Assembly: GCA_000165345.1 (NCBI GenBank)
Contig: CM000429.1
Span: 736,001-800,000 of the forward strand
Direction of reading: 5' to 3'
DNA length: 64,000 bases
Part shown: piece after piece, positions 42,001 through 45,000 of the stretch
Layout: each line of letters opens with the position of its first letter
Position numbering within the stretch: the first letter of the stretch is position 1
Program-made: the position numbers

Positions 42001-45000
42001 GGAAAGGAATGAGTGTGGGTAATGTAGCAAAGAGGAAAGGGGTTGTTTTTTTTTCTAGAAAAATGAAGAAATACGGTACTCAAACACGACAAGATTAATT
42101 TAATAATCTAAACTGGATGTGATATATAGAATGTTTGGAGTGGTGTTTTACCATGGAATTGATATCATTATCTTTTATAATCGTGTTAGTAATTGAACTT
42201 TCTATTTTTTTTCATTGGAATAACTATTTGTATGCGTATCTTAAATATTTTGATCCAATTATGAGAAATAAATGTCCAGGCCGAGTTAACTAAAAGTTAG
42301 AAGTTACAGATCCAGCTCCAAAGTGACCAAAAGGGACCTTTCAAGGACCCTTGTCACAAAAAATTGACTTTAAAGTAATTTTGAATTAATTTACTGGTCG
42401 ATTCTAACCAATATCTCGCGACCATCTATTTCACGATCGTTGAGCTTCTCAACAGCAAGTTGTGCATGGTTAGGATCAGTGAAAACAATTGTAGCAATTC
42501 CTCGTGATCTTCCATCTTCGAAATAAAAGACCTCGCAAGATTCTAAAGGACCAATTTCATTAAAGGCTTTAGCAAGATCCTCTTGAGTAGTTTTCCAAGC
42601 CAAGTTAGTAACAAAGACTTGCTTTCCTTTATTTTCCTCTTTTAGTGGAGGTCTTGGAGCATGAGTCCTTGTTCTCATTCCATAGCCTCTGTTATTCCAT
42701 TTGTTTGATCTTCTACCATATCTACTTGATTCATCTTCACGATCCTCACGCACAAAAATTAGACGATCAAGTAATGTAGTATTATTTAATTCATTGATAG
42801 CTCTTTGAGCTTCCTCCGGAAATGAATACTCAACTACTCCACAACCCCTAGAACGGCCAACTTCATCTTCAAAGACGTCTGCCCGAATAACATTTCCAGC
42901 TTGTCGCATGTGATCCTTAAGATCGTGCCACTTTGCCTTCCATGGAAGATTTCCAACATAAACACGGCAGTTTTTATCAGATACCATCCTCAATATATGT
43001 TCAAGAAGATTTTTGTCAACTTAAGAGGAGAAAAAATAATCAATTAAACTTTAATGTTATTCTACGTCTTTTTTGACCAATACTATAATTTTTCTTTCCT
43101 GTTTTGATTTTATTCTTTAATTTTTTTGAGGAATCTGATCCCCTCTTTTATTTTTCTTAGAATAATTTTAGTATCGTTACTATCTAATTTACTAAAACTT
43201 AAACTAGAAGGCTATTTAATTTGTTTGTATTATTTTACTCTACGTATACCGTTAACTAAAGTATGTAAATAGCAAATAAATAGTATATAATATATTTAAT
43301 TAATAACAAAGCTTTGACAAACTGCCTATTACCAATTATATATAAATGTTATATATACATATATATGTCATTTATAGCAATTCCACTATTTTTATTTAAA
43401 ACTTGAACCAAATATTATTTTATGTGGCATTTCTCCAATGTGCCGCCTGCATACTCATTGGGCGCCATAAAGGTACCGTCGCTATGGCGGGGCCAGCCCT
43501 GTCTACAGGGAATTCATTGAAAATTATATTTTAATTGTATAGTAATATTACATTGTTTACTATTATTTAATTAGCAAATTTGATTCAATTTTTCTTTATT
43601 AGAATGAGAAATTAGTTATTCTGGGAGTTTAAATAGGATCAATTTTGTGTTGAGGGGGGGGGGGGGGGGAAGAAAGGGGTTCATGAGAGGTGACAAAAAA
43701 GGACAAATATGGAGGGAAGGGGGGAATATATGAGATAATGTCAGAAGTGGATTGATTGAGGGGATGTGGGAAGGGGAGACATTTTTCTTTTGGCAAATGT
43801 CGGCATAATAAATATTAGAAAATATGTTCGTTGTGCCGCGCAAGCCAACATCAACTTCCCTTGTCAAAAAATTGTTATCGTTATTTTCCTTTTAACTTTT
43901 ATAACACCATTTCTCGCTACCAACCGCTCAAATATGTAATGACTTGAAAATATAGCTTTTCAAAACTAGTAAGAATTGTGTTTACCAGATACTATCAATC
44001 TGGATAAAGTTTCATTTATTTCTTATTTTCATGTTGCCTTTCCATCGGACCTCCGACTAGTTTGACTACTATGCGTCATCCGTCTCAGTTATGCATCCTA
44101 CATCCTTGGCTAGCGCGAGCGCTTGCCAACTGGGTTTTATTGAGAAAGTAAGGAACCTATCTCAAACATCGAATCCTGCTCAATTAACCGATCTCCTCTC
44201 TACCCTGCACAAGCCTGCTCTATATCCCCTGATTTTTTCTCCACTCCCCGATACAACCTCTTCCCACCAGCTGCCCTAAAATCGGAGTAACTACTATTAC
44301 TATTCTAATTCTACTTGGAAATTTGCCTCTAACCGTACAAATACTACTAGTTAACTACCAAGCATCTTGCCCTTCTCTAGCTCACCTTGGCGAAGGCTGA
44401 AACAAGCATCTGTGCTTTTTCCCCACGTTTCCACAAGAAACTCCTCTTCTTCTTCCCTAAGTCGTTCTTTTTCCCTTAAATAAAAACCCCAATTAGTCTC
44501 AGACACCGATACTTTTTAAAAAGCTTTTTGGCGCCCAGCCGCCAATACTTTATTAATATTAGCAAGCTTTTTTGGTATTGGGCGGCGGCGTGGCCCGCCT
44601 TTTACAGAAAATGTCATTTTAAAAGAAAAATAGAAAACTAAAAGGTTTGGATTATTTACTTTTTTATCGGAAAGAAGAGCCGAAAAATTTTGGCTAAAAC
44701 TGTTCGTATTGATGAGGGTCTAGTTGCAGGAACTTTATGTTACTTGTCAATTTATTGTAATTTTTTACAACTGAAAACAGGAAACAAACACAGAAATATG
44801 GATCATAAAGCTTACTGAGAGCCTAAACACATTTAAAAAAAGGGAATACAACAGAAACTGATAAGAATCCTTTCTTATATATTTATATACTGTACATATC
44901 ATACGTTTATTTGTTCTAACTATCCATGTAAATATTCCTATCCATATATAAACTTTTGAGTTATTAATTATGGAATTTGTCTCTAAACTTAAAAGTGAGG

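What the first reader, a model, noticed from the sequence alone, without database searches (positions are those of the whole stretch)
42994..44969. 2-kb gene-free divergent spacer containing a 1.2-kb GC-rich (about 45-50%) island, a G16 homopolymer and G-quadruplex-prone tracts
The spacer between the RRM gene and Ctr9 is twice the usual length. Positions 43430..44620 are strikingly GC-rich for non-coding sequence in this genome, and on the plus strand the island is pyrimidine-rich (e.g. CCCCTGATTTTTTCTCCACTCCCCGATACAACCTCTTCCCACCAGCTGCCC). It contains no ORF longer than 62 codons. At 43654..43669 there is a pure G16 run, followed within 130 bp by several G4-G6 tracts, which gives canonical G-quadruplex potential. 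The Ctr9 promoter boxes sit downstream of the island (44526..44599), so the island is not simply the Ctr9 core promoter. Candidates are an independently transcribed structured ncRNA, a long intron-containing 5' UTR of the highly expressed RRM gene, or a regulatory GC island. The presence of a G-strand-binding-type protein gene next to a G-rich tract is a curious coincidence worth testing.
Basis: seen in the sequence. Interest (0 to 1): 0.65.

Follow-up and report, generated by a model that had tools for sequence, protein, structure and literature searches.

The report
GC-skewed island between two promoters
The long gene-free gap upstream of the Cryptosporidium parvum telomere-binding protein gene contains two separate E2F-type promoters with 1 kb of unusually G+C-rich non-coding DNA between them; this DNA evolves fast, shows no RNA structure, and its striking G16 run is only a variable microsatellite.

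Summary
The window is C. parvum chromosome 1. The spacer lies between cgd1_3530 (CpGBP, the telomeric G-strand-binding RRM protein) and a Ctr9-like TPR gene. The raw observation mostly holds. The spacer is 1,976 bp with no conserved ORF, has the highest GC peak in 64 kb, and carries a real G16. However, the "island" averages 40% GC, not 45-50%, and it is composite. Two E2F-like motif clusters (43442-43491 and 44529-44599) bracket a G-rich, purine-rich block and a 450-bp C-rich block. This layout and the strand skew recur in six intestinal-clade species. The sequence itself diverges at or above the synonymous rate and cannot be aligned beyond C. ubiquitum. C. serpentis has only an 873-bp spacer with no island. 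I found no Rfam hit, no covariation, no telomere template, no reported CENH3 site and no match in the held part of the published lncRNA supplement. G16 varies among C. parvum isolates (16, 13, 9) and is G6 in C. hominis and C. tyzzeri. My best reading is a lineage-specific promoter-associated GC-skew island. I infer that two bidirectional promoters each send non-coding transcription inward. A structured ncRNA is not supported. No transcript data were available, so transcription is inferred, not shown. Interest is modest.

The parts
42391..42987 (-). CpGBP (cgd1_3530) coding sequence, a protein with two RRM domains. This is the left flanking gene.
   Evidence: ORF. Pfam RRM_1 E 4e-38. The protein is 100% identical in C. 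hominis, C. tyzzeri and C. meleagridis. Named GBP/cgd1_3530 in bioRxiv 10.1101/2025.09.30.679541.
42988..43430 (-). GBP leader. 42994-43270 is about as conserved as coding sequence. It holds a hairpin at 43128-43145, CTACGT motifs at 43062 and 43240, and a polypyrimidine tract plus AG at 43020-43037 on the minus strand.
   Evidence: Identity to C. ubiquitum is 0.82, against 0.61 at Ctr9 4-fold sites. nhmmer E 3e-46 in a more distant species. Alignment, sequence.
43442..43491 (.). Promoter cluster P1. It contains E2F-like sites GCCGCC (43442), GGCGCCA (43461) and TGGCGGG (43485), plus the invariant GGTACCG (43472-43478).
   Evidence: Motif scan. The arrangement is conserved in 6-8 species. The apparent hairpins show no covariation.
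43500..43640 (+). Inward-facing initiator-like elements TGTCTACAGG (43500-43509) and TCATTGAAAA (43514-43523), followed by an AT-rich stretch (GC 0.18).
   Evidence: [TA]GTC[TA] lies within +6..+55 of E2F sites in 5 of 16 gene-facing directions, against 9% expected by chance. It is also present here. TCATTGAAA is conserved and resembles the element at the Ctr9-facing side of P2.
43641..43790 (+). G-rich, C-poor, purine-rich block (G 43%, C 4%) with G-box motifs at 43652-43664, 43719 and 43758.
   Evidence: Composition. G-box counts. G4Hunter scores of 1.4-2.2 at the homologous site in six species. This is the least conserved sequence of the spacer.
43654..43669 (+). G16 homopolymer, a hypervariable mononucleotide repeat specific to C. 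parvum.
   Evidence: Length is 16, 16, 13 and 9 in C. parvum assemblies, 6 in C. hominis and C. tyzzeri, and the run is absent in C. meleagridis.
43791..44030 (.). AT-richer middle (GC 0.31). It holds a plus-strand AATAAA at 43807-43812 and a minus-strand AATAAA at 44015-44020. I propose it as a convergence or termination zone.
   Evidence: Composition. A minus-strand AATAAA is kept in all five aligned species. The plus-strand one is kept in three of five, being lost in C. meleagridis and chipmunk genotype I. The weak hairpin at 43797-43855 has no covariation support.
44031..44480 (-). C-rich block on the plus strand (C 31%, G 14%), which is G-rich and purine-rich on the minus strand. It includes the best conserved core at 44290-44400.
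   Evidence: Composition. Core identity is 0.95, 0.95, 0.85 and 0.68, against 0.95, 0.87, 0.69 and 0.61 at 4-fold sites. No conserved structure on either strand.
44496..44505 (-). Inward-facing initiator-like TGTCTGAGAC, 24 nt from the first P2 E2F site.
   Evidence: Conserved in four of five aligned species.
44529..44599 (.). Promoter cluster P2. It contains E2F-like sites TGGCGCC (44529), GCCGCCA (44538), GGCGGCGGC (44581) and CCCGCC (44594).
   Evidence: The site at 44524-44537 is an inverted copy of the P1 site at 43459-43472 (I5).
44600..44969 (+). Ctr9-like gene leader. It holds the initiator-like AAATGTCATT (44609-44618) and a conserved 6-codon uORF, MDHKAY* (44798-44818).
   Evidence: nhmmer hits in C. 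canis and the Logan species.
44970..49472 (+). Ctr9-like TPR protein gene (EAK88306.1). This is the right flanking gene.
   Evidence: Exact match. Pfam TPR repeats. Weak CTR9 matches in the PDB, E 4e-4.

Best explanation
The spacer is an expanded divergent promoter region, not an RNA gene. Most head-to-head gene pairs in this genome share one E2F cluster. Here GBP and the Ctr9-like gene each have their own cluster, P1 and P2, 1.04 kb apart.

I infer that both clusters fire in both directions. Under that model, the 1 kb between them consists of two convergent, non-coding, promoter-upstream transcription units:
- P1 rightward through the G-rich block.
- P2 leftward through the block that is C-rich on the plus strand.
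- Both meet in the AT-richer middle.

The sense strand of each half is strongly G>C and purine-rich. It carries G-box motifs and G runs, so the non-template strand is prone to G4 and R-loop formation. The GC content and skew are maintained while the sequence itself turns over quickly. The island arose or expanded in the intestinal Cryptosporidium clade. G16 is a recent microsatellite expansion inside the G-rich block.

Shown: motif architecture, composition, conservation pattern, absence of coding potential and absence of RNA structure.
Inferred: inward transcription, and any regulatory consequence for GBP or the Ctr9-like gene.
For: - E2F-like hexamers are concentrated in intergenic DNA (56 of 69). 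Other divergent pairs have a single cluster, whereas this spacer has two.
- Two clusters about 1.0-1.1 kb apart, with G-skew to the right of P1 and C-skew to the left of P2, recur in C. parvum, C. hominis, C. meleagridis, chipmunk genotype I, C. ubiquitum and a Logan species. The pattern is weaker in C. felis and C. xiaoi.
- Across the window, E2F clusters mark a switch from C>G on the left to G>C on the right.
- 24 of 29 ORFs have positive sense-strand GC skew and 28 of 29 are purine-rich. The two island halves carry that signature pointing inward at higher amplitude (skew 0.83 and 0.39).
- Initiator-like [TA]GTC[TA] elements are enriched downstream of E2F sites (5 of 16 against 9% expected). 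They sit on both inward sides and are conserved.
- The two inner E2F sites form an inverted pair.
[quoted passage not shown] It also proposes bidirectional promoters for C. parvum lncRNAs (PMC7840661).
- GC is at equilibrium in the island: 59 W>S against 52 S>W changes, implying GC 0.42. The W>S rate per site is about 1.6x that of other spacers.
- The island is non-coding. It has 1-bp indels between close species, and none of its ORFs is in a 15-billion-protein collection.
Against: - I had no transcript, TSS or chromatin data, so inward transcription rests on motifs and composition alone.
- The published poly(A)+ lncRNA catalogue gave no match. Twelve island k-mers and six P1/P2 E2F 11-mers are absent from the held supplement. 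The FASTA was truncated when stored, so this is a weak negative.
- The initiator-like motif statistic rests on only 16 promoter directions.
- The model does not explain why the GC content here is far higher than at other promoters, or why the core at 44290-44400 is conserved.
- Parsimony polarisation of substitutions is biased in AT-rich DNA.
Confidence: 0.45

Rival explanations
1. A single independent long intergenic ncRNA gene, unstructured and fast-evolving, fills the space between P1 and P2. It is driven by one of the two promoters and acts through its transcript.
For: - A promoter-like cluster lies at each end and AATAAA signals are present (43807 and 44480 on the plus strand; 44015 and 43596 on the minus strand).
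- The plus-strand 1-kb fold is slightly more stable than shuffles (z -2.1).
- The core at 44290-44400 is conserved above the neutral rate.
- lincRNAs exist in C. parvum (33 reported, PMC7840661).
Against: - One half of any single-strand transcript would have antisense-like composition.
- There is no covariation and no species-specific long-range pairing.
- The minus-strand fold is less stable than shuffles (z +1.7).
- There is no match in the held part of the lncRNA supplement.
- Divergence is at the neutral level.
- The island is absent in C. serpentis.
Confidence: 0.2
2. A non-transcribed cis-regulatory or chromatin spacer. Under this reading, G-box (ApiAP2) sites plus GC-rich, nucleosome-favouring DNA insulate two differently regulated E2F promoters.
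For: - G-box G[AGT]GGGG motifs cluster in the G-rich block in six species.
- The G-box is a known over-represented upstream motif bound by ApiAP2 cgd8_810 (PMC3734150).
- Composition is conserved while sequence is not, which fits a structural or chromatin role.
Against: - Strand-specific G against C skew is not expected from nucleosome or insulator constraints alone.
- Only one to four G-boxes occur per species.
- The ATAC-seq study reported no AP2 motifs in sporozoite open chromatin.
Confidence: 0.15
3. A by-product of GC-biased gene conversion at a meiotic recombination hotspot that is anchored on the wide double promoter.
For: - GC is high with fast sequence turnover.
- The W>S rate is elevated relative to other spacers, at 0.103 against 0.059-0.066 per site.
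- The island is lineage-specific.
- From general knowledge: Cryptosporidium has an obligate sexual cycle, and hotspots in yeasts sit at promoters.
Against: - Gene conversion is strand-symmetric, so it does not explain the strong, conserved and oppositely signed G/C skew of the two halves.
- Hotspots rarely persist across species this divergent.
- No recombination data were available.
Confidence: 0.1
4. Overlapping long 5' UTRs. GBP would be transcribed from P2 and/or the Ctr9-like gene from P1, with or without a 5' UTR intron.
For: - Extensive UTR overlap is reported for C. parvum.
- A conserved polypyrimidine tract plus AG lies 32 nt upstream of the GBP start codon.
- The gene leaders are unusually long, with E2F clusters 380-500 bp from the start codons.
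Against: - Such mRNAs would be C-rich and pyrimidine-rich across the island, contrary to the sense-strand rule.
- Each gene has its own proximal E2F cluster with a conserved initiator-like element facing it.
- The island evolves much faster than the proximal leaders.
Confidence: 0.07
5. A structured housekeeping ncRNA such as telomerase RNA or RNase MRP RNA. This would be attractive because the locus lies next to the telomere-binding protein gene and neither RNA is annotated in C. parvum.
For: - GC-rich islands in AT-rich genomes are often RNA genes.
- Telomerase RNA and MRP RNA are not among the ncRNAs listed for C. parvum (PMC9465071).
Against: - No permuted CCTAAA template of 8 nt or more is conserved on either strand.
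- No Rfam hit even at E up to 10, and none in orthologous loci.
- No covariation.
- Divergence is at the neutral rate.
- No homology is detectable in C. canis, C. felis or C. xiaoi.
- There is no island in C. serpentis.
Confidence: 0.02

Closest known systems
E2F/DP1-type bidirectional promoters of Cryptosporidium parvum (Oberstaller 2013, PMC3734150; Li 2021, PMC7840661; bioRxiv 10.1101/2025.01.17.633476)
   Same: Both show TGGCGCC, GGCGGG or CCGCCAA sites clustered 90-500 bp upstream of start codons. Both show a skew switch across the cluster and initiator-like GTC[TA] elements downstream. The literature reports E2F as the dominant open-chromatin motif, with many peaks bidirectional.
   Different: Two clusters serve this one divergent gene pair instead of one. 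They are separated by 1 kb of DNA whose GC (0.40-0.50) and skew far exceed those at any other promoter in the window.
GC-skewed, R-loop-forming CpG-island promoters and promoter-upstream (divergent) transcripts of animals, plants and yeasts (from my own knowledge, e.g. Ginno et al. 2012; PROMPTs and CUTs)
   Same: Both have positive G>C skew on the non-template strand downstream of initiation sites. Both are GC-rich relative to the genome, keep composition rather than sequence, and carry G-runs with G4 potential.
   Different: No CpG methylation context is established here. R-loops and the divergent transcripts are untested. The island is lineage-specific and lies in a 30% GC genome.
C. parvum lincRNAs (Li et al. 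2021, PMC7840661) and the P. falciparum GC-rich ncRNA elements mentioned there
   Same: All are intergenic and non-coding, with an E2F motif within about 100 bp of a possible start. The Plasmodium case is also GC-rich in an AT-rich genome.
   Different: Most C. parvum lincRNAs are AT-rich. This locus gave no match in the held part of their supplement. There is no sequence similarity and no repeat family.
G-box (G[T/G/A]GGGG) ApiAP2 cis-elements (PMC3734150)
   Same: Several G-boxes sit on one strand within 150 bp, and similar counts occur at the homologous site in six species.
   Different: In C. parvum most motif hits come from the G16 run alone. Binding is untested.
GA-rich CENH3-bound sites of C. 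parvum (bioRxiv 10.1101/2025.09.30.679541)
   Same: Both are purine-rich (GA-rich) tracts in or near intergenic DNA on chromosome 1.
   Different: The locus is not among the 58 intergenic or 347 coding CENH3 windows. The nearest are in cgd1_3500 and cgd1_3550.

Membership tests
Any Rfam family or structured ncRNA | A covariance-model match at the gathering score | tested here: not met
   No hits in the window. Only chance-level hits at E up to 10 in the spacer. No hits in four orthologous loci.
Any Rfam family or structured ncRNA | A conserved secondary structure supported by compensatory changes | tested here: not met
   The covariation term is 0.38 and 0 for the two best windows. The C-rich core has z about 0 on both strands. 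G-block to C-block duplex energies are no better within species than across species or after shuffling.
Telomerase RNA | A template of more than one telomere repeat (a permutation of CCUAAA, 8 nt or more), conserved between species | tested here: not met
   C. parvum has no 8-mer or longer. The only hits are isolated, non-syntenic ones in C. felis and the Logan species. The telomere repeat (GGTTTA)n is taken.
Protein-coding gene | An ORF that is conserved and free of frameshifts between species | tested here: not met
   The longest ORFs are 62 codons (ATG) and 83 codons (TTG). Close species differ by 1-bp indels. C. felis and C. xiaoi have no ORF above 112 codons, and none is shared. None of the ORFs is in the protein collection.
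E2F/DP1-type promoter of C. parvum | E2F motif ([C/G]GCGC[G/C] or TTSSCGCCWAA) clustered upstream of a gene and conserved in orthologous positions | tested here: met
   Clusters lie at 43442-43491 and 44529-44599 and are conserved in 6-8 species.
E2F/DP1-type promoter of C. parvum | A transcription start within about 100 bp, with open chromatin | not testable with these tools
   No RNA-seq, CAGE or ATAC-seq data could be reached. Only initiator-like motifs could be examined.
Published C. parvum lncRNA catalogue (Li et al. 2021) | The sequence, or its upstream motif, is listed in their supplement | tested here: inconclusive
   Twelve island k-mers and six P1/P2 E2F 11-mers are absent. The FASTA and the workbook were cut when stored.
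Canonical G-quadruplex motif | Four G runs of 3 or more with loops of 1-7, conserved at the site | tested here: not met
   The motif is present in C. parvum only because of G16, and separately in the Logan species. It is absent in C. hominis, C. meleagridis, chipmunk genotype I and C. ubiquitum. G-richness (G4Hunter 1.4-2.2) is conserved. Folding in vivo is not testable here.
GC-skew or R-loop promoter island | Positive G>C skew on the presumed non-template strand flanking an initiation region | tested here: met
   Skew is 0.83 (43641-43790, plus strand) and 0.39 (44031-44480, minus strand), against a mean of 0.155 for ORFs. The pattern is conserved in six species. R-loop formation itself was not tested.
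CENH3-bound GA-rich site | Listed as a CENH3-enriched window by CUT&RUN | tested here: not met
   No Chr1 window lies between cgd1_3500 (774.6 kb) and cgd1_3550 (795.4 kb) in datasets S2 and S3. The spacer maps to about 784.4-786.4 kb in a C. parvum assembly.

The most novel reading that the evidence does not exclude
The G-rich, C-poor non-template strand just upstream of the CpGBP promoter forms R-loops or G4 structures. CpGBP, the parasite's own G-strand/G4-binding RRM protein, recognises these structures. This would give an autoregulatory sensor that couples GBP expression to free G-rich single-stranded nucleic acid, and the hypervariable G-run would tune it between C. parvum isolates.
Probability: 0.05. 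Interest if true: 0.7.

Novelty: new variant of a known kind. Interest (0 to 1): 0.3.

Why it matters
Gene regulation in Cryptosporidium is poorly understood and the genome is extremely compact. One kilobase of extra non-coding DNA that keeps its GC content and skew is therefore unlikely to be inert.

If the model holds, the locus is a clean natural example for three questions:
- How E2F promoters fire bidirectionally.
- How transcription shapes base composition in an AT-rich parasite genome.
- How a promoter region can expand in one clade only.

The G-run is also a ready-made length-polymorphic marker for typing C. parvum isolates.

The negative result matters too. This is not the missing telomerase RNA or another structured housekeeping RNA, despite its position next to the telomere-binding protein gene.

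Tried and rejected
- **Rfam.** I ran the gathering threshold on the window, a permissive E-value on the spacer, and the gathering threshold on four orthologous loci. Nothing matched. There are no tRNAs.
- **Telomerase RNA template.** A scan for permuted CCTAAA found nothing conserved.
- **Conserved RNA structure.** The sliding RNAalifold scan flagged the E2F boxes and one hairpin. Neither has covariation, because the pairs come from invariant, self-complementary GC boxes.
- **Long hairpin between the G-rich and C-rich blocks.** Duplex energies are explained by composition alone. Whole-island folds give z -2.1 on the plus strand and +1.7 on the minus strand.
- **Hidden protein gene or pseudogene.** There are no conserved ORFs, there are frameshifting indels, and no ORF is in the protein collection.
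- **CENH3 or centromere site.** The locus is not in the published lists.
- **Repeat or mobile element.** The window has no other copy, and the only tandem repeats are the G-run and TA-rich tracts.
- **Published lncRNA supplement.** There was no match, but the files are truncated.
- **Recovering transcript contigs through exact protein look-ups.** Only long genomic contigs were returned.
- **Bacterial promoter and terminator scan.** It is uninformative for a eukaryote.
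Full report
**Identity of the locus**

The 1,500-aa ORF at 44970-49472 is an exact match to the C. parvum Iowa II TPR protein EAK88306.1 on a chromosome-sized contig. 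Pfam finds only TPR repeats. The best PDB matches are CTR9 homologues at E about 4e-4, so "Ctr9-like" is a fair but weakly supported name.

The 198-aa protein with two RRM domains at 42391-42987 (minus strand) is cgd1_3530. A 2025-26 preprint uses it as CpGBP, the telomeric G-strand/G-quadruplex-binding protein, and gives the C. parvum telomere repeat as (GGTTTA)n (bioRxiv 10.1101/2025.09.30.679541).

**Checking the observation**

- The gap 42994-44969 is 1,976 bp. The published mean intergenic distance is 504 bp (PMC7840661). Other divergent gaps in this window are 420-920 bp.
- The peak 200-bp GC is 0.495. This is higher than every other non-ORF gap and every coding window in the 64 kb.

| Segment | Length | GC | Note |
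|---|---|---|---|
| 43430-43515 | 86 bp | 0.57 | box |
| 43516-43640 | 125 bp | 0.18 | AT-rich |
| 43641-43790 | 150 bp | 0.47 | G 43%, C 4%, 73% purine |
| 43791-44030 | 240 bp | 0.31 | middle |
| 44031-44480 | 450 bp | 0.45 | C 31%, G 14% |
| 44481-44620 | 140 bp | 0.41 | box region |

- G16 at 43654-43669 is real. It is the only G or C run of 7 or more and the only canonical G4 motif in the window, and it is the top G4Hunter region.
- It is a length-variable homopolymer. It is G16 here and in one Logan assembly, G13 in assembly GCA_031892065.1 (record CP029780.1) and G9 in another Logan assembly. It is G6 in C. hominis and C. tyzzeri and missing in C. meleagridis.

**Comparative anatomy**

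I fetched the orthologous GBP-to-Ctr9 spacers.

- The spacer is 1.9-2.0 kb in C. hominis, C. meleagridis, chipmunk genotype I, C. ubiquitum and an unnamed Logan species. It is 2.5 kb in C. felis and 2.9 kb in C. xiaoi. All have a GC-rich centre.
- Primary sequence aligns only as far as C. ubiquitum.
- Profile HMMs of the island blocks find nothing in C. canis, C. felis, C. xiaoi or the Logan species. The GBP leader and the Ctr9 leader are found (E 3e-46 and 4e-26 in the Logan species, and 2e-11 for the Ctr9 leader in C. canis).
- The island diverges as fast as or faster than Ctr9 4-fold degenerate sites, and faster than the other long spacers nearby. Only the core at 44290-44400 is clearly above neutral.
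- GC is not decaying. Polarised substitutions give 59 W>S against 52 S>W, implying an equilibrium GC of 0.42. The W>S rate per site is about 1.6x that of neighbouring spacers.
- In C. serpentis (gastric clade) the same two genes are divergent neighbours. The spacer there is 873 bp at the locus-average GC of 0.31, with two single E2F-like sites 445 bp apart and no island. The island is therefore specific to the intestinal clade.

**What the GC boxes are**

- E2F-like hexamers are overwhelmingly intergenic in this window (56 of 69). They typically lie 90-500 bp upstream of start codons, and other divergent gene pairs share a single cluster.
- This spacer has two clusters: P1 at 43442-43491 and P2 at 44529-44599. 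They are 1.04 kb apart, and each lies 380-500 bp from its own gene.
- The two-cluster layout and the invariant GGTACCG next to P1 are conserved.
- The inner E2F sites form an inverted pair (I5).
- E2F (TGGCGCCA), G-box (G.GGGG) and TGCAT are the most over-represented C. parvum upstream motifs (PMC3734150).
- E2F motifs lie within 100 bp of lncRNA starts (PMC7840661).

**Strand composition**

- Across the window, E2F clusters mark a switch from C>G on the left to G>C on the right.
- 24 of 29 ORFs have positive sense-strand GC skew and 28 of 29 are purine-rich.
- The two halves of the island carry this sense signature pointing inward. It is far stronger than in real leaders: skew 0.83 and 0.39, against 0.14 and 0.05 for the GBP and Ctr9 leaders.
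- The same sign pattern recurs in six species.
- Initiator-like [TA]GTC[TA] elements occur within +6..+55 of E2F sites in 5 of 16 gene-facing directions, against 9% expected. They are present and conserved on both inward sides.

These points lead to the model of two bidirectional promoters with convergent, non-coding, purine-rich upstream transcription. This part is inference, because no transcript data were available to me.

**Tests of the alternatives**

- **Structured ncRNA.** There is no Rfam match. The alifold scan flags only the GC boxes and one hairpin, both without covariation. The apparent long-range pairing of the G-rich and C-rich blocks is no better within species than across species or after shuffling.
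- **Telomerase RNA.** There is no conserved template.
- **Coding.** There is no conserved ORF, there are frameshifting indels, and no ORF is known to a 15-billion-protein collection.
- **CENH3 site.** The locus is not in the published lists, and the nearest sites are in cgd1_3500 and cgd1_3550.
- **Repeat family.** There is none.
- **Catalogued lncRNA.** I found no match in the held supplement, which is truncated.
- **G4.** G-richness is conserved, but the canonical motif is not.

**Verdict**

The raw observation is largely real, but the region was mis-described as one homogeneous, pyrimidine-rich, 45-50% GC island. It is best read as an expanded, lineage-specific double-promoter region whose inner kilobase keeps GC-richness and opposite strand skews while its sequence drifts. 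G16 is a young microsatellite.

A structured RNA gene is not supported. A regulatory or promoter-associated island is the best fit, at about 0.45 confidence. An unstructured lincRNA, a non-transcribed regulatory spacer and biased gene conversion remain live rivals. Existing stranded RNA-seq and TSS data for C. parvum would settle the matter quickly.

Noticed in passing
window 42994-43270 (minus strand = GBP sense): The GBP leader is about as conserved as coding sequence (0.82 identity to C. ubiquitum). It has a hairpin at 43128-43145 (GAGG..CCTC), and C. serpentis has CTCC..GGAG at the same place. It also has two CTACGT motifs (43062, 43240) and a polypyrimidine tract plus AG 32 nt upstream of the start codon, which could be a 5' UTR intron acceptor. 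This suggests post-transcriptional control of the telomere-binding protein gene.
   Followed up: partly
window 44798-44818: A six-codon upstream ORF, ATGGATCATAAAGCTTACTGA (MDHKAY*), lies in the Ctr9-like leader. Position and peptide are conserved in five species (MDHKAC in C. meleagridis, MDHKVY in chipmunk genotype I).
   Followed up: partly
window 13860-14140: A second small GC-rich patch (0.45 per 200 bp) lies in a non-ORF gap. It has an E2F-like site (13974), TGCATGCA motifs and the same C-rich-left, G-rich-right skew switch. It looks like an ordinary promoter, which shows that GC-rich patches here mark promoters rather than RNA genes.
   Followed up: partly
window 39108-42390: A 3.3-kb ORF-poor gap lies between the AP2 gene (cgd1_3520) and the 3' end of GBP. 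It has a lone E2F-like site at 40071 and is better conserved than the island. The same gap is only 1.15 kb in C. serpentis.
   Followed up: no
L019 7128-8000 (C. serpentis): The gastric-clade species keeps the GBP and Ctr9 genes as divergent neighbours, but the spacer is 873 bp at average GC with no skew island. The island is therefore a trait of the intestinal clade.
   Followed up: yes
L005 and L020 (C. canis): The C. canis assembly breaks inside this spacer. One contig starts 1,192 bp upstream of Ctr9 and another has only 648 bp upstream of GBP. This hints that the region is hard to assemble there.
   Followed up: no
window about 53900-54300 (inside ORF 52091-54868): A published CENH3 CUT&RUN window in cgd1_3550 (Chr1 795364-795764) maps roughly onto the GA-rich part of this ORF, where GC is 0.41 and skew is positive. 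The mapping is by offset only, not by sequence.
   Followed up: no
window 359-434, 7130-7184, 17795, 21742: Several E2F-like sites lie more than 1.4 kb from the nearest ORF start on my ORF-only map. There may be unannotated transcripts or spliced genes in those places.
   Followed up: no
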